NCBI GenBank assembly: GCA_964461185.1
Contig: CAYWTD010000007.1
Coordinates: 1 to 20,262, forward strand
Length of the DNA: 20,262 nt
Direction of reading: 5' to 3'
From: an uncultured Candidatus Saccharibacteria bacterium
GTDB lineage: Bacteria; Patescibacteriota; Minisyncoccia; Phycocordibacterales; JAACPR01
Positions 1,400-20,238 of this stretch are shown in pieces. The notes under the pieces are model-generated. The model was given only the letters and a program-made list of their open reading frames with translations, did not search any database and was not told the DNA's origin. Both the position numbers and the translations under genes were made by a program. Each line of letters begins with the position of its first letter. The first letter of the stretch is position 1.

Positions 1400-2314
1400 T
1401 TATGATGTGGCAACTGATACATCGACCTCGGCAAGCTTTTTCACCGCTTTGGTTACTAAGGGCAGAATATCATCATAAAAATTAAGGTCAAGAATTTCAG
1501 AAAGTTTAAACCAACGCGCGTCATCAAGTCCCCCTGATTCACCAAGCTTTAATTCAGTATATTTTGAATTGGCCAAGAAATAAACAACCTGTTTTCTGTG
1601 CTGACCTTTTTCTGGATGATTTGCAACATATTCATTTTCTCCGATTTTTTCTACAATTTCGATATCAATTCCAAGTTCTTGTTTAATAGCTCTAATGGCG
1701 CCGTCCTCGTCAGATTCGTCTTTTTCTATTCCGCCTTTTGATAGAGTCCAGTGTCCAAAAACATCATGAACGAGCGCAATATAAATTTCATTATCAAGAA
1801 CTGAATAAATCACGGCGCCTGCCTTTTTCTCTATTGGCATTTCTTCAAAAGGAATATCACGACGTTTTTTTGGTTTGCCGTCATCTTTTCCTGGTTCACC
1901 AATTTCTTTATAAACAGCACCCAAAACTCCATTAACAAATTTACTGGATGATTCACCACCAAAAGTTTTTGCTAATTCAATGGCTTCATTAATCGCGACT
2001 TTTGAAGGAACCTCATCTCGATCAGAAAATAATAGTTCAGCTAAACCAATTCTTAAAATATTTCGATCAACAACAGAAATCTTATCAAGTGGCCAATCTG
2101 GCGCAGCCTTTGTAATAATTTTATCTAGATCAGATTTTTTACTTAAAACAGTCTCTACTAACTTCTTCATAAAAGGAGCGTCACTAATTCCAGGAGCGAA
2201 TTCCGTAGCGTTGCGTAAAATAGTATCATCAACCTCAAAGCCTAAACTATCTCTGAAATCCCATTCAAAGAGAGTTTGCAACACTATTGATCGTGAAAGG
2301 TGCCTATTCGCCAT
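1400..2314 (-). CDS. nusB: NusB transcription antitermination factor fused to a C-terminal NUDIX-fold domain
   Basis: The first ~140 aa are NusB-like: MANRHLSRSIVLQTLFEWDF..., VDRNILRIGLAELLF, KVAINEAIELAKTFGGESSSKFVNGVLGAVYKE. A Lys/Asp-rich linker follows. The C-terminal ~160 aa has a NUDIX-fold pattern with a Nudix-box-like stretch GGIEKDESDEDGAIRAIKQELGI, which reads GX5EX7R-A-U-x-Q-E-x-GU, i.e. it deviates from REUxEE at two acidic positions. It is a single uninterrupted ORF. Confidence 0.8.
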   Translation of the reverse strand: MANRHLSRSIVLQTLFEWDFRDSLGFEVDDTILRNATEFAPGISDAPFMKKLVETVLSKKSDLDKIITKAAPDWPLDKISVVDRNILRIGLAELLFSDRDEVPSKVAINEAIELAKTFGGESSSKFVNGVLGAVYKEIGEPGKDDGKPKKRRDIPFEEMPIEKKAGAVIYSVLDNEIYIALVHDVFGHWTLSKGGIEKDESDEDGAIRAIKQELGIDIEIVEKIGENEYVANHPEKGQHRKQVVYFLANSKYTELKLGESGGLDDARWFKLSEILDLNFYDDILPLVTKAVKKLAEVDVSVATS

Positions 2315-8653: not shown

Positions 8654-9160
8654 TCAGGGCAGAATGAGTGCCGGCTCTTCTTCGCCGAAGTGACAGAGTT
8701 TGATGTTCTCCCACACAATCACAACAGCATCGCGATATTCGATTTCCGCCAAAACCGGCACACACACGCGGTTGTTAGGACCGACAATCACGGATTTCCA
8801 TCCCGGAATTCTCATGCCGAAATAGTATCTCCGAAAGAAATCCAGCCCACGCTCAAGCATCGCATTCAGGTGCTCGATACCTAGACATTTGTCCAACATA
8901 CCGTGCGACTTGAGATGCTCATAGATGTGAATGCCCTCTACACCTTGATTTTGGTGACAATGAATATATGTCTTCAACTCTTCGGTGTTGAAAAGGGTTG
9001 CATAACGTTGCTCCAATTCTGGGTTCAGCGGAACAACAGTCCACCCCTCCGGATACAAAAGTTTAACCGGTGGCTCAATACCAACAATAACAACTGGATC
9101 AACGTAACCACCAAACTTTGGTGCCAGTTTTTTTCTCTTCATCCAGCGCCTTGTGCTCAT
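8654..9160 (-). CDS. Hypothetical protein of unknown family on a compositionally foreign insert
   Basis: 168 aa, MSTRRWMKRKKLAPKFGGYVDPVVIVGIEPP...IHCHQNQGVEGIHIYEHLKSHG... I recognise no family. The SD is perfect (AGGAGG, then 6 nt, then ATG). Hand-counted GC is roughly 50-57% in a 60-nt sample, against roughly 23-38% in neighbouring core genes. It has its own promoter and shares the terminator with thrS. Confidence 0.7.
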   Translation of the reverse strand: MSTRRWMKRKKLAPKFGGYVDPVVIVGIEPPVKLLYPEGWTVVPLNPELEQRYATLFNTEELKTYIHCHQNQGVEGIHIYEHLKSHGMLDKCLGIEHLNAMLERGLDFFRRYYFGMRIPGWKSVIVGPNNRVCVPVLAEIEYRDAVVIVWENIKLCHFGEEEPALILP

Positions 9161-9977: not shown

Positions 9978-10061
9978 GCGCAGATGGCAGAGCGGTCAAT
10001 TGCACCAGACTGTAAATCTGGCGCCCTCAGGGCTACGGGGGTTCAAATCCCTCTCTGCGCA
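9978..10061 (+). tRNA. tRNA-Tyr (anticodon GTA)
   Basis: The acceptor halves GCGCAGA/TCTGCGC pair perfectly. The anticodon stem CCAGA/TCTGG carries loop CTGTAAA, giving anticodon GUA. A long variable arm (type II) is present as expected for bacterial tRNA-Tyr, and the T-loop is GGGGG-TTCAAAT-CCCTC. The discriminator is A and there is no encoded CCA. Confidence 0.85.
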
Positions 10062-10065
10062 CAAA

Positions 10066-17301: not shown

Positions 17302-17324
17302 AATGGCGTGGTGGCGAAGTGGAA

Positions 17325-17396
17325 ACGCTGCGGTCTGCAAAACCGCCATGCGCGGGTTCGATTCCCGCCCACGCCTCAATAATGTTTGAGCTCTCA
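17325..17396 (+). tRNA. tRNA-Cys (anticodon GCA)
   Basis: 72 nt. The acceptor GGCGTGG/CCACGCC pairs perfectly. The anticodon arm GCGGT-CTGCAAA-ACCGC gives GCA. The T-arm is GCGGG-TTCGATT-CCCGC, and the discriminator is U, as is typical for Cys. There is no encoded CCA. Confidence 0.85.
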
Positions 17397-17448
17397 TGCG
17401 GGGGTTCGAATGTTAGAAAATAGAATAAGCCCGGGTGGCGGAATTGGT

Positions 17449-17530
17449 ATACGCGCACGACTTAAAATCGTGTCTCAAACGGGATGCGGGTTCGACTCCC
17501 GCCCCGGGCACAATAGAAATATTCGCGATA
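17449..17530 (+). tRNA. tRNA-Leu (anticodon TAA)
   Basis: 82 nt. The acceptor GCCCGGG/CCCGGGC pairs perfectly. The anticodon arm CACGA-CTTAAAA-TCGTG gives UAA. A long variable arm (type II) and the T-arm GCGGG-TTCGACT-CCCGC are present, and the discriminator is A. Confidence 0.85.
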
Positions 17531-17542
17531 CGCGATTTATTT

Positions 17543-17567
17543 TTATTAAATCCGCCCATAGCTCAGC
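17543..17567 (+). other. Inter-tRNA hairpin plus T-run (processing or terminator-like element) between tRNA-Leu(TAA) and tRNA-Lys
   Basis: TCGCG-ata-CGCGA (5-bp stem, 3-nt loop) is followed by TTTATTTTTATT. Confidence 0.3.
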
Positions 17568-17571
17568 TGGT

Positions 17572-17644
17572 AGAGCAGTCGCCTCTTAAGCGATTGGTCG
17601 TAGGTTCAAGTCCTACTGGGCGGACACGAAAATAGTATTTTTAT
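17572..17644 (+). tRNA. tRNA-Lys (anticodon CTT)
   Basis: 73 nt. The acceptor CCGCCCA/TGGGCGG pairs perfectly, which gives an unusual C1:G72. The D-arm is GCTCAGCTGGTAGAGC. The anticodon arm GTCGC-CTCTTAA-GCGAT gives CUU. The T-arm is GTAGG-TTCAAGT-CCTAC, and the discriminator is A. Confidence 0.8.
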
Positions 17645-17646
17645 TT

Positions 17647-17669
17647 TCGAGGGTTGTATTTGAGATTTT
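17647..17669 (+). other. Inter-tRNA AT-rich hairpin between tRNA-Lys and tRNA-Leu(TAG)
   Basis: CGAAAATA-gtatttt-TATTTTCG is a perfect 8-bp inverted repeat with a 7-nt loop, starting 3 nt after the tRNA-Lys discriminator. Confidence 0.3.
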
Positions 17670-17697
17670 ATCTGTGTAAGATATATATTCAGTTTAT

Positions 17698-17780
17698 GCG
17701 CGAGTGGCGGAATTGGCAGACGCACTTGCCTTAGGAGCAAGCGAGGTTTCCTCGTGGAGGTTCAAGTCCTCTCTCGCGCA
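17698..17780 (+). tRNA. tRNA-Leu (anticodon TAG)
   Basis: 83 nt. The acceptor GCGCGAG/CTCGCGC pairs perfectly. The anticodon arm CTTGC-CTTAGGA-GCAAG gives UAG. The variable-arm hairpin is CGAGG-ttt-CCTCG, the T-arm is GGAGG-TTCAAGT-CCTCT, and the discriminator is A. Confidence 0.85.
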
Positions 17781-17828
17781 CACAAGACAAAAAAACACGG
17801 CCATGCATCGTTTTTTTTGTTTTTTCTA

Positions 17829-17858
17829 TTGACATTTAGCCATAAAACGTGCTATAAT
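17829..17858 (+). promoter_or_regulatory. Consensus sigma-70 promoter with extended -10 driving the SPFH operon
   Basis: TTGACA (17829..17834), an 18-nt spacer, then TGcTATAAT (TG at 17850..17851, TATAAT at 17853..17858). Both hexamers match consensus perfectly. The predicted start site is near 17865, about 55 nt before the ATG at 17920. Confidence 0.6.
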
Positions 17859-17919
17859 ATGTTTCAGAAAAATAAACCCGTGGTTTAACGCCACACATGT
17901 ACATTGAAAAGGAGTTGTT

Positions 17920-18984
17920 ATGGAAAAGTTAATTGGTTTTTCGTCTTTTGTCGCCGTATTATCATTCATTGGAATGGCGGTTGGCTTTCTCGGTACGATT
18001 TTTGGAAATGAACAAAACAAGCCCGTGGAACAAGCTCCACGTTGGTTGTTCTTTGTGTCATTTCTCGTGCTGGTAACTAGTGTTACCTATTTGGTGACGC
18101 TTGCGTGCCTTCAGGTCTTTCTTGGAATTACTCATGGTTTCTTGTATACAGCAATTCCAATTCTCGTATCTGGATATTGTTTGTCGACAGTGTTTGTAAA
18201 AACACATGAGTCTTTCCTTGTGAATCTGAAAAGCAACGAGTTCGCCATGGCGAACGATAAACTGTTTGGCCGATTTTGTGTAAACGAATCTGGCATTCAA
18301 AATTACCGAGTGTTTTTTGGTGGTCTAACCGCCAAATTTCCCTGGGAAATTGTTGAACCAAACAGTGATCTAAATCGTGATCGCAGAGTTGAGGTGGACT
18401 ATAACACCGAATTCAAGGATGGAACTACTGGGCATGTAAGGTTTTCTTTCTTACTCAAGCCAAACCCAATGAAACTTCAGCAATATGTCACGACCAGCAC
18501 CAACACGGATGAAAGAACAAAAATCCTTGAAGGAGTCTTTGGCGACACAATCAAAATGATCCTGAGCGATAAGTTCAAGAAAAAGACGATTGATCAAGCC
18601 ACAGCAAAGAAGGCTGTGATTCGTGACGAGGTTCTCAAAAAGGGCCGTACTGAAATCGGGACGCAGGAAGAGACCTATGGTGTTACATTCGGTAGTTTCG
18701 TCATAAGCGACATCGACTACCCCGAAAACATCAGAGACGCTTATGAACAAGAAATTGTTTTCAAGCGTTTCATGGTGCCTGTAAAGCAGTTGCTCAAGCA
18801 GAGAGGTTATACTGATGAACAAATTAATGGAACCTGTGATGAAAATGACAGGGTTCCATTTGAAGTTCTGAAATGGGCATTTGAGCAAGCACAAATCAAT
18901 ACTGGATTGGCGACGCTGGAAATCAAAGACTGGCGTGGCCTTGAGGGTGTTATGAAGGCGCTTGGGAATATTGGTTCCAAATAA
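17920..18984 (+). CDS. Polytopic membrane protein with an SPFH/band-7 (stomatin/prohibitin-like) domain
   Basis: 354 aa. It has three N-terminal hydrophobic helices (LIGFSSFVAVLSFIGMAVGFLGTIF; WLFFVSFLVLVTSVTYLVTLACLQVFL; FLYTAIPILVSGYCLSTVFV). The segment GLTAKFPWEIVEP...GHVRFSFLLKPNPMKLQQYVTTSTN...ERTKILEGVFGDTIKMILSDKF...AVIRDEVLKKGRTEIGTQEETYGVTFGSFVISDIDYPENIRDAYEQE aligns block by block with the prohibitin/stomatin SPFH domain (GLHFRIPW...; [73 protein letters not shown]). It has a strong SD (AAGGAG, 5 nt before the ATG) and elevated GC. Confidence 0.65.
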   Translation: MEKLIGFSSFVAVLSFIGMAVGFLGTIFGNEQNKPVEQAPRWLFFVSFLVLVTSVTYLVTLACLQVFLGITHGFLYTAIPILVSGYCLSTVFVKTHESFLVNLKSNEFAMANDKLFGRFCVNESGIQNYRVFFGGLTAKFPWEIVEPNSDLNRDRRVEVDYNTEFKDGTTGHVRFSFLLKPNPMKLQQYVTTSTNTDERTKILEGVFGDTIKMILSDKFKKKTIDQATAKKAVIRDEVLKKGRTEIGTQEETYGVTFGSFVISDIDYPENIRDAYEQEIVFKRFMVPVKQLLKQRGYTDEQINGTCDENDRVPFEVLKWAFEQAQINTGLATLEIKDWRGLEGVMKALGNIGSK

Positions 18985-18990
18985 GGAGAG

Positions 18991-19566
18991 ATGATTATGA
19001 GCGAGACAGAGAACAACAGGTCCATTAGTCAAGGATTGGCTAAGAAGATATCGAAAAGCATTATGTGGCTTTCGATTATCATTGTGGTCATTATCGCACT
19101 GATGAACCTGTCAAAATCAAAGCAGTCATTTTCTTCTTGGGTGGACAAAAAAACACAAAAAACCAAGACGACTGAGATTGCAACGCCTAGCCCTTTTACA
19201 CCAAGTCGTGGGTCTTTTACCCTCATTCCTGGTGGAAAAGTCGTTAGGATCAGCATGAGAAAAGTGCGAAGTATAGATTGGTGCCCTGAAACCACCGACG
19301 AGTACTTTGTTCGATATATAAAGATGGATGGCTTGCCGTGGAGGCCCATTACATCTTCTGCTGATGGCTGGATATCATCGAGAAACAATTATAGTCCGGA
19401 ACAAGTGATGGCAGGTGCCGGAAACATTCTGGAGGTACAGTTCAAAGTACCAAAATCAAAAACTTCTCGATGGTTTTGTAAAGTAAGTGAAATACCTTAC
19501 GAGCCGGTGACAATTAGGATCAGCGATGATCCGACATTCGATAGGAATCCAAGACGATACTTGTAA
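18991..19566 (+). CDS. Single-pass membrane protein of unknown family, translationally coupled to the SPFH gene (probable true start 18997)
   Basis: 191 aa. After a basic N-terminus comes one TM helix (IMWLSIIIVVIIALMNL), then a ~140-aa domain with two Cys (DWCPETT, RWFCKVSE) and no motif I recognise. The SD AGGAG (18984..18988) overlaps the upstream TAA stop. The spacing favours the second ATG at 18997. It ends in the double stop TAATAG. Confidence 0.65.
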   Translation: MIMSETENNRSISQGLAKKISKSIMWLSIIIVVIIALMNLSKSKQSFSSWVDKKTQKTKTTEIATPSPFTPSRGSFTLIPGGKVVRISMRKVRSIDWCPETTDEYFVRYIKMDGLPWRPITSSADGWISSRNNYSPEQVMAGAGNILEVQFKVPKSKTSRWFCKVSEIPYEPVTIRISDDPTFDRNPRRYL

Positions 19567-19582
19567 TAGAATCATAGCAAAA

Positions 19583-19611
19583 GCCCCGACCTAATGGCCG
19601 GGGCTTTTTTT
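19583..19611. terminator. Strong bidirectional intrinsic terminator closing the SPFH operon (+) and the convergent pilin-like genes (-)
   Basis: GCCCCGACC-taat-GGCCGGGGC is a 9-bp GC-rich stem with one mismatch. On the plus strand it is followed by TTTTTTT, and it is preceded by AAAA, which gives a U-run on the minus strand. Confidence 0.85.
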
Positions 19612-19630
19612 ACAACAAATAAAATTAAAT

Positions 19631-19873
19631 TTAGCCGTATACGGTGCTTAAAGCAATTCTAACTATTGTAAAGACAGACATCATGATCAACATACCAATC
19701 AGCCCCCAAATAATGTGCTGTCTACCAGTTTGCCTCGCCTCAGCATTATCAGAGTCTTTTATGTAAACAAAGACACCCCAAATGAAAACAACTAATGCTG
19801 CTGCAAAAAGAAGTCGAATTAGTGGATTAACAACCACATTAACAACTTTGGATAAAAATTGATCAAGTTCCAT
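19631..19873 (-). CDS. Small two-helix membrane protein, T4SS-pilin-like (TrbC/VirB2-like family common in Patescibacteria)
   Basis: 80 aa. The pattern ...LLFAAALVVFIWGVFVYIKDSDNAEARQTGRQHIIWGLIGMLIMMSVFTIV is helix-1, then GG/WG-x-x-Y, a short polar loop with AR/AK, then helix-2. It is paralogous to the next gene. Confidence 0.6.
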   Translation of the reverse strand: MELDQFLSKVVNVVVNPLIRLLFAAALVVFIWGVFVYIKDSDNAEARQTGRQHIIWGLIGMLIMMSVFTIVRIALSTVYG

Positions 19874-19893
19874 GTTTTATAATATTGAATAAT

Positions 19894-20238
19894 TTATCTT
19901 CCTGGTATTGAAGGCAATGTAACTTGGCCAGAACCACCTGTGTTCACACCTATAGTCTGTCCCAATAATTCAACAATTCCCCAAACAGAAACCATAACGA
20001 ACAAAACAATGATTCCATAAATCATAACGCTTCGCGCTTCTGTTCTCTTGTCCTCATCAGTGGCAACAACGTATTGGAGTATTCCCCAAATAAATACAAC
20101 AACAGCAATACCAATAATAAGAGGAATCAATGAAGATACCAACCCTTGTATGTTTGCGATTACACCGGCTAGACCATCTGCAGCAAAAAGCGCAGTCGGA
20201 AGTAAAACAGCAGTTAATCCTGAAATATACCTAATCAT
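19894..20238 (-). CDS. T4SS-pilin-like small membrane protein with an N-terminal signal peptide (tandem paralog)
   Basis: 114 aa with a signal-peptide-like N-terminus (MIRYISGLTAVLLPTALFA/ADG). The core LIPLIIGIAVVVFIWGILQYVVATDEDKRTEARSVMIYGIIVLFVMVSVWGIV aligns with the 80-aa neighbour (shared VVFIWG...Y...D...EAR....G.I......SV..IV). It carries a Gly/Thr-rich C-terminal tail. Confidence 0.6.
   Translation of the reverse strand: MIRYISGLTAVLLPTALFAADGLAGVIANIQGLVSSLIPLIIGIAVVVFIWGILQYVVATDEDKRTEARSVMIYGIIVLFVMVSVWGIVELLGQTIGVNTGGSGQVTLPSIPGR

What the first reader, a model, noticed from the sequence alone, without database searches (positions are those of the whole stretch)
17829..19611. 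Self-contained, compositionally foreign two-gene membrane operon (polytopic SPFH-domain protein plus unknown single-pass partner) inserted directly after a four-tRNA cluster
This is the best candidate for an undescribed system. A perfect-consensus TTGACA-18-TGcTATAAT promoter, two genes with strong AGGAG SD sequences and an SD-over-stop junction (translational coupling), and a strong GC-stem terminator form a tight unit of about 1.8 kb. Hand-counted 60-nt samples give roughly 45-50% GC, against roughly 23-38% in flanking core genes. Native genes here essentially lack SD sequences. The location, immediately 3' of a tRNA cluster, is a classic landing site for acquired DNA. Gene 1 joins an atypical three-TM N-terminus to an SPFH/band-7 domain; classical HflK/C, QmcA and YqiK proteins have one TM. 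Gene 2 has no recognisable family and is not obviously an NfeD-type OB-fold partner, the usual SPFH companion. In E. coli, SPFH scaffolds such as HflK/HflC gate FtsH proteolysis of lambda cII and so bias the lysis-lysogeny decision. A horizontally delivered SPFH pair could therefore be a membrane-protease or membrane-integrity modulator, a phage moron or a defence/abortive-infection-type module. That function is inference only.
Basis: partly seen in the sequence, partly recalled or inferred. Interest (0 to 1): 0.8.

Follow-up and report, generated by a model that had tools for sequence, protein, structure and literature searches.

The report
Clade-specific SPFH membrane operon, not an insert
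A two-gene membrane operon (a three-helix SPFH scaffold protein plus a new single-pass partner) that looks foreign in this AT-rich Saccharibacteria-like genome sits at the same spot in every related genome examined, so it is an old, fast-evolving lineage-specific operon with unusual expression signals rather than a recent insertion or phage-defence island.

Summary
The described features are real. There is a unique perfect TTGACA-18-TGcTATAAT promoter, two AAGGAG-led genes with a Shine-Dalgarno (SD) site over the stop codon, a strong terminator, and GC3 of 0.44-0.45 against 0.20-0.30 in the SD-less neighbours. Gene 1 is a three-TM SPFH protein by Pfam Band_7 and by Foldseek matches to prohibitin, HflK/C, stomatin and QmcA. 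Gene 2 is a single-pass protein with a jelly-roll-like beta domain. It matches no family and is not NfeD.

The "foreign insertion" reading fails. In 10 distinct homologous loci the same pair is present wherever the contig reaches, and tRNA-Leu(TAG) lies upstream wherever the sequence extends that far. Three more remote loci keep the same gene layout. Upstream IF2-RbfA synteny is seen in four loci. Flank proteins are 71-91% identical, while gene 1 is 24-44% and gene 2 21-41%, in broadly the same rank order. The GC3 excess, SDs, promoter and terminator recur in every locus with real flanking sequence.

There is no mobile-element, phage or defence signal. The best reading is an ancestral operon of a narrow Saccharibacteria-like Patescibacteria group that works like an SPFH-NfeD pair with a new partner. 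The conserved GC-rich, SD-led expression style and the fast divergence remain unexplained.

The parts
17698..17781 (+). tRNA-Leu (anticodon TAG), the conserved upstream neighbour of the operon
   Evidence: ARAGORN and Rfam. The same tRNA lies directly upstream of gene 1 in L003, L004, L006, L008, L009, L011, L014 and L015. In L017 it is adjacent but inverted.
17784..17823 (+). A-run/T-run hairpin after the tRNA cluster, a probable terminator that separates tRNA transcription from the operon
   Evidence: Inverted repeat I7. Fold -9.9 kcal/mol, z = -3.0. The function is inferred.
17829..17858 (+). Consensus sigma-70-type promoter: TTGACA, 18-nt spacer, TGcTATAAT (extended -10)
   Evidence: 12/12 match with TG. 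Unique in the window, and 0 of 100 shuffles gave a match. TTGAC(A/T)...TGnTATAAT-like boxes sit at the equivalent place in L003, L004, L006, L013, L014, L015, L016 and L017.
17865..17919 (+). 5' untranslated leader of about 55 nt, carrying SD AAGGAG at 17909-17914
   Evidence: Sequence. No Rfam family. Fold no better than shuffles, z = 0.21. The transcription start is inferred from the -10 box.
17920..18984 (+). Gene 1: 354-aa SPFH/Band-7 protein with three N-terminal transmembrane helices
   Evidence: Pfam Band_7 E = 1.9e-7, 31.8 bits against a 23.6 cut-off; 6 of 10 family members hit Band_7. AF2 pLDDT 78.7 with helices 2-28, 39-68 and 74-99. Foldseek PDB matches to prohibitin, HflK/C, stomatin, QmcA and flotillin at E = 1e-9 to 1e-5. 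The family has only 19 representatives among 1.84 billion.
18983..18988 (+). SD (AAGGAG) of gene 2, overlapping the gene 1 stop codon TAA (18982-18984): the translational-coupling junction
   Evidence: Sequence. In relatives the junction is a TAATG or ATGA overlap, or a short SD-bearing spacer.
18997..19566 (+). Gene 2: 189-aa single-pass membrane protein (TM about 22-38), a low-complexity S/T/P/K linker, and a C-terminal jelly-roll-like beta domain (about 72-175). An alternative ATG at 18991 sits too close to the SD.
19579..19612 (+). Intrinsic terminator: GC stem plus U-run
   Evidence: Fold -19.9 kcal/mol, z = -4.95, 0 of 200 shuffles as stable. Inverted repeat I6. Equivalent GC hairpins with T-runs follow gene 2 in L003, L004, L006, L009, L011, L012 and L014.

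Best explanation
This is an ancestral, vertically inherited two-gene operon of a narrow Saccharibacteria-like group within Patescibacteria (CPR).

Gene 1 is a divergent SPFH (stomatin/prohibitin/flotillin/HflK-C) protein anchored by three transmembrane helices. By analogy with every structurally solved SPFH protein, it most likely oligomerises into a membrane-attached ring or cage that fences off a patch of membrane.

Gene 2 is made by coupled translation from the same mRNA. It is a single-pass membrane protein with a jelly-roll-like beta domain. It most likely acts as the obligate partner or client held in or beside that ring. That is the role NfeD proteins play for stomatin, QmcA and flotillin-type SPFH proteins, but the fold here is different and unrelated.

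The unit has its own consensus promoter, a roughly 55-nt leader, two SDs and an intrinsic terminator.

Shown: the gene structure, the SPFH fold, the conserved pairing, the synteny, and the conserved signals and composition.

Inferred: oligomerisation, physical interaction of the two proteins, the membrane side (the SPFH domain is probably cytoplasmic by the positive-inside rule), and the physiological role (membrane organisation or quality control).
For: - SPFH identity: Pfam Band_7 above the gathering score, matched by 6 of 10 family members. Foldseek top hits are all SPFH cage proteins at E down to 1.4e-9.
- Pairing: a TM-plus-beta-domain ORF of 136-196 aa lies directly downstream of gene 1 in all 12 distinct loci that extend far enough. 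It has an SD and a 1-4 nt overlap or a short spacer. Nine partners align with shared motifs L-x-P-G, VRYxK-x-DGMPW and GW.
- Ancestry, position: tRNA-Leu(tag) is upstream wherever the sequence reaches. ClpB/trypsin/IscS/DUF4446/IF2/RbfA/tRNA synteny extends to L003, L004, L006 and L009.
- Ancestry, divergence: IF2 is 74-86% and RbfA 71-91% identical, against 24-44% for gene 1 and 21-41% for gene 2. For the window, the rank order is the same for RbfA and gene 1 (L003 > L006 > L004 > L009).
- Ancestry, composition: the pair's GC3 tracks each host's GC3 with an offset of about +0.2 to +0.3.
- No mobility, phage or defence marks.
- Topology: loop 1 and the post-TM3 segment carry more K/R than the N-tail and loop 2 across the family.
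Against: - No experiment or co-fold shows that the two proteins interact or that gene 1 oligomerises.
- The helix after the SPFH domain is short (269-294), and the C-terminus is modelled poorly. The assembly could therefore differ from known cages.
- Family profiles do not reach PDB SPFH chains by sequence. Profile comparison of the gene 1 family with QmcA is marginal, E = 0.05.
- Its membrane orientation is ambiguous. If its beta domain is outside and the SPFH domain inside, contact would be through TM helices only.
- This explanation does not account for three things: the 5-10-fold faster protein divergence than the flanks, the conserved GC3 excess, and SD use in an otherwise SD-less lineage.
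Confidence: 0.6

Rival explanations
1. One reading: a recently acquired foreign island (a phage moron, or a defence or abortive-infection module) that landed next to a tRNA cluster.
For: GC3 of 0.44-0.45 against 0.20-0.30, with SDs and a consensus promoter that the neighbours lack. The location is next to tRNA genes. SPFH proteins are often patchily distributed, and lateral transfer has been proposed for some (PMC2636767).
Against: The locus and flanks are the same in related genomes whose core proteins have diverged to 71-91% identity. The same anomalies recur in all of them and scale with host GC. There are no att-like repeats and no integrase or transposase match in the window genes scanned. 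PADLOC gave no hit for either protein or any family member. There was no relative in IMG/VR, in 50,697 phage genomes or in BFVD. Three samples carry identical DNA with the same junctions.
Confidence: 0.04
2. Ancient resident locus that is repeatedly overwritten. Divergent alleles of the cassette are swapped between related lineages by homologous recombination through the conserved flanks (tRNA-Leu on one side). Frequent recombination raises GC3 through GC-biased gene conversion. This would explain both the low identity and the GC excess.
For: The identity gap between the pair (21-44%) and the flanks (61-91%) is very large. Both G- and C-ending codons are enriched about two-fold, a general GC shift rather than selection for particular codons. 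The segment between tRNA-Lys and tRNA-Leu(tag) is a visible insertion hotspot: a 429-aa pilin-like gene in L004, two genes in L011 and a 90-aa ORF in L006. Within the closest trio the gene 1 order (L003-L006 44% > window-L003 41%) differs slightly from the RbfA order (window-L003 91% > L003-L006 85%).
Against: The coarse rank order of gene 1 identity follows RbfA and IF2. The pair's GC3 tracks the host's GC3 rather than that of a common donor pool. The 5' leader and 3' UTR are only slightly GC-enriched, 0.36 against 0.29 for other intergenic DNA. No intermediate or mosaic alleles were seen, although only about 13 lineages exist in the databases.
Confidence: 0.15
3. Conflict-interface module. 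The pair sits at the cell envelope and is under diversifying selection from phages or from the host bacterium of the epibiont. Gene 2 would be a surface-exposed receptor, decoy or exclusion factor, and the SPFH ring its membrane platform. Its separate SD-led, strongly promoted expression would allow rapid induction.
For: The pair diverges faster than anything nearby, including the pilins at 61-70%. The gene 2 architecture (positively charged N-tail, TM, S/T/P-rich stalk, beta-sandwich) resembles a type II surface-anchored protein. The fold class is shared with GOLD, PirA and capsid-type jelly rolls. It lies convergent to a T4SS-pilin gene cluster in most loci.
Against: No similarity to any catalogued defence or superinfection-exclusion family; the weak PHROG hits have E > 0.09. 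dN/dS cannot be measured because synonymous sites are saturated and no close pairs are available. Lineage-restricted proteins generally evolve fast without any conflict. The positive-inside rule places the SPFH domain in the cytoplasm.
Confidence: 0.15
4. The compositional anomaly simply reflects very high expression: translational selection on codons in a strongly expressed native operon.
For: Perfect consensus promoter, strong SDs and a strong terminator.
Against: Enolase, ClpB, IF2 and the pilin genes show background GC3 (0.17-0.30 in the AT-rich genomes) and no SD. The shift affects G-ending as much as C-ending codons, for example AAG, GAG and CTG. Highly expressed genes normally evolve slowly, whereas this pair is the fastest in the neighbourhood.
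Confidence: 0.06

Closest known systems
SPFH-NfeD operons (E. coli QmcA-YbbJ and YqiK-YqiJ; Pyrococcus PH1511-PH1510; Bacillus FloT-YuaF)
   Same: An SPFH membrane protein is encoded next to, and co-translated with, a small membrane-anchored partner that carries a compact beta domain. QmcA in the QmcA-YbbJ complex (8z5g) is among the structural matches of gene 1. The gene order, SPFH first and partner downstream with overlapping or coupled junctions, matches qmcA-ybbJ.
   Different: The partner is not NfeD. There is no PF01957 hit in 9 of 9 members, hhalign against YbbJ gives 0.2%, and the predicted fold is a jelly-roll-like sandwich rather than an OB barrel. It has one TM rather than several. 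Gene 1 has three TM helices instead of one, and a much shorter post-SPFH helix.
HflK/HflC-FtsH complex
   Same: SPFH fold, with top-tier Foldseek matches to 7vhq, 7wi3 and 9cz2. A ring or cage mechanism is inferred.
   Different: There is a single SPFH gene, not a paralogous HflK/HflC pair. No FtsH is encoded nearby. Topology is probably cytoplasmic rather than periplasmic. Sequence profiles do not reach HflK/C.
Minor prokaryotic SPFH subfamilies (SPFH5-SPFH12 of Hinderhofer et al. 2009, PMC2636767)
   Same: A small, divergent subfamily that only weakly matches PF01145, has N-terminal hydrophobic segments, and has its own conserved operon partner.
   Different: It is restricted to a few Saccharibacteria-like lineages absent from that 2009 survey. 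Only 19 cluster representatives were found in 1.84 billion. No assignment to any of the 12 subfamilies was tested.

Membership tests
SPFH / Band 7 superfamily (PF01145) | Sequence match to the Band_7 profile above Pfam's gathering score | tested here: met
   31.8 bits against a 23.6 cut-off, E = 1.9e-7, residues 152-279. 6 of 10 family members match, and 5 of 9 remote relatives match.
SPFH / Band 7 superfamily (PF01145) | SPFH alpha/beta fold followed by a helical (coiled-coil) segment | tested here: met
   AF2 model pLDDT 78.7. Foldseek against PDB gave 44 hits at E <= 1e-3; the top 24 are SPFH proteins (prohibitin, HflK/C, stomatin, flotillin, QmcA), and the vault hits below them match a related fold. 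The helix after the domain is short (269-294).
SPFH / Band 7 superfamily (PF01145) | Homo- or hetero-oligomeric ring or cage on a membrane | not testable with these tools
   No multimer prediction was available, so this is inferred from homologues only.
NfeD (PF01957), the classical SPFH operon partner: gene 2 | C-terminal NfeD-like OB-fold domain detectable by profile | tested here: not met
   No Pfam hit at E <= 0.1 in any of 9 members. hhalign of the family profile against E. coli YbbJ gives probability 0.2%.
NfeD (PF01957), the classical SPFH operon partner: gene 2 | Five-stranded OB beta-barrel fold | tested here: not met
HflK/HflC pair | Two paralogous SPFH genes in tandem, associated with FtsH | tested here: not met
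   Gene 2 is not an SPFH protein. No FtsH gene lies in the 20-kb window among the genes annotated.
Known anti-phage defence systems (PADLOC-DB v2) | Match of either protein to a defence-system HMM | tested here: not met
   0 hits for both proteins at E <= 1. 0 hits for 10 gene 1 and 9 gene 2 family members at E <= 0.01.
Genomic island / prophage remnant at a tRNA | Presence/absence polymorphism, att-like direct repeat of the tRNA 3' end, an integrase, or relatives on phages | tested here: not met
   The pair is present at the same site in all related loci found. No tRNA-derived direct repeat is present. The window genes scanned gave no integrase match. No phage or viral relatives were found. 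Presence/absence in closer sister genomes could not be surveyed.

The most novel reading that the evidence does not exclude
A lineage whose genes are otherwise AT-rich, SD-less and often leaderless has kept one operon in "canonical bacterial" format throughout its diversification: a consensus sigma-70 promoter, a long leader, strong SDs and GC-rich codons. This would be because the operon runs on a separate expression channel. For example, it might be switched on when leaderless translation is shut down, or on host contact. It would encode a new kind of SPFH cage with a rapidly diversifying surface partner at the epibiont-host or epibiont-phage interface. If so, it would be both a new SPFH-partner system and a natural marker for dual translation-initiation regimes in CPR bacteria.
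Probability: 0.1. Interest if true: 0.8.

Novelty: new variant of a known kind. Interest (0 to 1): 0.42.

Why it matters
SPFH cages are a current focus of membrane biology, with recent cryo-EM structures of HflK/C, prohibitin, stomatin, flotillin and QmcA-YbbJ. Nothing is known about them in CPR/Patescibacteria, whose minimal envelopes mediate an obligate epibiotic lifestyle.

This operon provides a minimal SPFH variant with three TM helices and a short coiled coil, together with a previously undescribed non-NfeD partner family.

It is also a cautionary example for island prediction. Atypical GC3, SD usage and a tRNA-adjacent position can all be stable, ancestral properties of a locus. A single-genome compositional argument for horizontal transfer is therefore misleading here.

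The contrast between this operon and its SD-less, probably leaderless neighbours could be used to study translation-initiation regimes in Saccharibacteria.

Tried and rejected
- K-mer-seeded homologue searches for both proteins found only themselves. A search with a 3-sequence gene 2 profile found only the three sequences already known.
The viral-contig scan found nothing.
- The 10-sequence alignment was too divergent for the search for related loci. A 5-sequence alignment worked.
- PDB sequence searches with both family profiles found nothing meaningful.
- NCBIfam and PHROGs gave only sub-threshold noise.
- Rfam found nothing in the 5' leader, and the leader fold is no better than shuffles. 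A riboswitch or other known cis-regulatory RNA is therefore not supported.
- The long antisense ORFs (18451-19032 and 19029-19388, minus strand) are a by-product of the scarcity of TTA, CTA and TCA codons. Synonymous shuffles give similar lengths, so an overlapping gene was rejected.
- Direct and inverted repeats showed no att-like or IS-like boundaries.
- The afdb50 fold library was unavailable.
- The weak Pfam hit of gene 2 to Mycobact_memb (MmpS, E = 0.16) covers only the TM and linker, and was not pursued.
- dN/dS was not attempted. The only available pairs are either identical (L001/L002 against the window) or saturated (44% identity or less).
- One script call failed without output.
Full report
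**1. What is in the sequence**

The window is a low-GC (0.36) stretch of core genes. These are RNase III, NusB-NUDIX, RNase HII, DnaE, ThrRS, sortase, ClpB, a trypsin-like peptidase, IscS, a DUF4446-like ORF, IF2 and RbfA. They are followed by four tRNAs (Cys, Leu-taa, Lys, Leu-tag at 17305-17781) and, at the right end, two T4SS_pilin genes on the minus strand.

- **Promoter.** TTGACA-18-TGcTATAAT at 17829-17858 is the only perfect match in the window, and none arose in 100 shuffles.
- **tRNA terminator.** An A/T hairpin at 17784-17823 plausibly ends tRNA transcription.
- **Gene 1.** It spans 17920-18984, with AAGGAG five bases upstream of the start codon.
- **Gene 2.** It most likely starts at ATG 18997. 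The ATG at 18991 is only two bases from the SD. Its AAGGAG overlaps the gene 1 stop codon.
- **Operon terminator.** A hairpin of -19.9 kcal/mol with a U-run lies at 19579-19612, z = -4.95.

The synonymous signal is strong, with GC3 of 0.44/0.45 against 0.20-0.30 (0.33 for one pilin) in the neighbours. None of the intact neighbours has an SD, apart from one other ORF, orf168.

**2. What the proteins are**

*Gene 1.* It passes the Pfam Band_7 threshold with 31.8 bits against a cut-off of 23.6. An AF2 model built on a 10-member family alignment (pLDDT 78.7) shows three N-terminal helices at 2-28, 39-68 and 74-99. These are followed by an alpha/beta domain and a helix at 269-294. Foldseek against the PDB returns SPFH cage proteins at the top (prohibitin, HflK/C, stomatin, QmcA, flotillin) at E = 1e-9 to 1e-5, with vault lower down. 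SPFH membership is therefore met by both sequence and fold.

Counting K/R across the family puts loop 1 and the segment after TM3 on the positive side. The SPFH domain is therefore probably cytoplasmic, but this is an inference.

*Gene 2.* It has a charged N-tail, one TM helix, a low-complexity S/T/P/K linker and a beta domain of about 100 residues modelled at pLDDT 80-90.
- It has no Pfam, NCBIfam, PHROG or PADLOC family.
- A profile comparison with E. coli YbbJ (NfeD) gives a probability of 0.2%.
- It is a new partner family, not NfeD.

**3. Relatives and their context: the decisive evidence**

K-mer-seeded searches found only the proteins themselves. Two other samples carry 100% identical DNA.

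An exhaustive phmmer search of 1.84 billion cluster representatives found only 19 proteins at E <= 1e-3. Ten of these, including the query itself, had E <= 1e-10 and aligned full length at 28-42% identity, TM helices included. I recovered the genomic context for the nine relatives with E <= 1e-10 and for three more remote ones. The two assemblies that carry names are a Candidatus Saccharibacteria MAG (L003) and a Patescibacteria MAG (L004).

The arrangement repeats across these loci.
- tRNA-Leu(tag) lies directly upstream wherever the contig reaches (L003, L004, L006, L008, L009, L011, L014, L015). It is adjacent but inverted in L017.
- A single-pass TM-plus-beta-domain ORF of 136-196 aa follows gene 1 in all 12 loci long enough. 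It is coupled by an SD and a 1-4 nt overlap or a short spacer.
- Nine partners align with shared motifs. Of the three remote partners, only the one in L015 scores significantly against that family profile.
- IF2-RbfA-tRNA synteny holds upstream in L003, L004, L006 and L009.
- Downstream there is either the pilin cluster or an iPGM-enolase-MscL block.

Flank proteins are 61-91% identical to those of the window. Gene 1 is 24-44% and gene 2 21-41% identical across the family. For the window, the rank order is the same for RbfA and gene 1: L003 > L006 > L004 > L009.

**4. The "foreign" signature is a conserved property of the operon**

In every locus with real flanking sequence the pair has the following features.
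- GC3 about 0.2-0.3 above its neighbours. The offset rides on the host's own GC3, for example 0.19 rising to 0.42-0.51 in L009 and 0.43 rising to about 0.61 in L004.
- AAGGAG-type SDs on both genes.
- A TTGAC(A/T)...TGnTATAAT-type promoter with a 55-110 nt leader.
- A GC hairpin terminator.

Neighbours including enolase, ClpB, IF2 and the pilins have no SD. Of 46 neighbour genes, 25 carry a -10-like box ending 3-15 nt before the start codon. Shuffles gave a mean of 13.5 and a maximum of 22, which suggests leaderless or very short-leader mRNAs.

The codon shift doubles both G- and C-ending codons in four genomes. It is therefore a general GC shift, not the C-ending preference expected from translational selection.

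Synonymous sites between these genomes should be saturated (an inference from IF2 identities of only 74-86%). An un-ameliorated recent import therefore cannot explain a constant offset. Some locus-specific force maintains it, whether selection on the mRNA or GC-biased gene conversion. I could not determine which.

**5. Tests of mobility, phage and defence**

All were negative.
- There is no att-like repeat, and the window genes scanned gave no integrase or transposase match.
- There is no relative in IMG/VR, in 50,697 phage genomes by tblastn or in BFVD by fold.
- There is no PADLOC hit for either protein or any family member.
- The long antisense ORFs are a codon-usage by-product.
- No known RNA family or notable structure lies in the leader.

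**6. Interpretation**

The best-supported reading is an ancestral, clade-restricted operon. It encodes a divergent three-TM SPFH scaffold and a co-translated single-pass partner.

It would work like the SPFH-NfeD pairs: an SPFH ring or cage delimiting a membrane patch, with the partner as client or adaptor. The partner fold is unrelated to NfeD.

Oligomerisation, interaction, topology and physiological role are inferred, not shown.

Two features stay unexplained and keep the finding from being fully ordinary. One is the 5-10-fold faster divergence than the flanks. The other is the conserved GC-rich, SD-led, strongly promoted expression format in an SD-less lineage. Candidate explanations are recurrent allele exchange with biased gene conversion, diversifying selection at a host or phage interface, or a separate regulatory channel. 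None is excluded, and none is well supported.

**7. Novelty and score**

This is a new variant of a known kind: an SPFH protein with an operon partner. The new elements are a partner family that none of the libraries searched here recognises, an unusual three-TM anchor, and extreme rarity. No paper in the searched library mentions both SPFH and Saccharibacteria.

Interest is moderate at 0.42. It has structural and CPR-biology value and is a useful caution against single-genome island calls. There is no evidence for a categorically new mechanism.

Noticed in passing
window 8654-9160 (- strand): orf168 is a 168-aa soluble hypothetical protein with no Pfam hit. It shares the operon's anomalies: GC 0.47, GC3 0.52 and a strong SD (ACAGGAGGAATAGA-ATG). 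It lies between ThrRS and sortase, near tRNA-Tyr (9978-10062). It could be a second member of the SD-led, GC-rich gene class or a real insertion.
   Followed up: partly
window, L003, L004, L009: upstream regions of 46 neighbour genes: Neighbour genes lack SDs, and 25 of 46 have a TATAAT-like box ending only 3-15 nt before the start codon (shuffle mean 13.5, maximum 22). This suggests widespread leaderless or very short-leader mRNAs in this lineage.
   Followed up: partly
L004 4269-5558 (-); L011 822-1355 (-) and 1871-2794 (+); L006 1269-1541 (+): The short spacer between tRNA-Lys and tRNA-Leu(tag) is 72 nt in the window. In relatives it holds variable cargo: a 429-aa type IV pilin-like, Gly-rich protein in L004, two unknown ORFs in L011 and a 90-aa ORF in L006. 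The real insertion hotspot appears to be here, upstream of tRNA-Leu(tag), not at the SPFH operon.
   Followed up: no
window 19631-20238 (- strand); L001 2064-5945: A cluster of four or more small T4SS_pilin (PF18895) genes lies convergent to the operon. Behind it are two small unknown ORFs, a solute-binding protein and a methyltransferase. The pilins are 61-70% identical between genomes.
   Followed up: no
L009 11978-12397 (+); L011 822-1355 (-): Two further small ORFs in related genomes carry SDs (AAGGAG and GGAGG), with GC3 of 0.32-0.33, in the upper part of or slightly above their neighbours' range. Neither has a significant Pfam hit. They hint at a small class of SD-led genes in these genomes.
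   Followed up: no
window 1400-2314 (- strand): There is a NusB-NUDIX fusion protein: NusB domain at residues 7-136 and NUDIX at 167-279.
   Followed up: no
L006 2882-3396 against L007 2417-2931: Gene callers give different gene 2 lengths (146 and 167 aa) for two contigs that carry the identical gene 1 (P0004). The longer form, with the SD GAGGAGG, looks correct. This is a start-site calling artefact or a small sequence difference.
   Followed up: no
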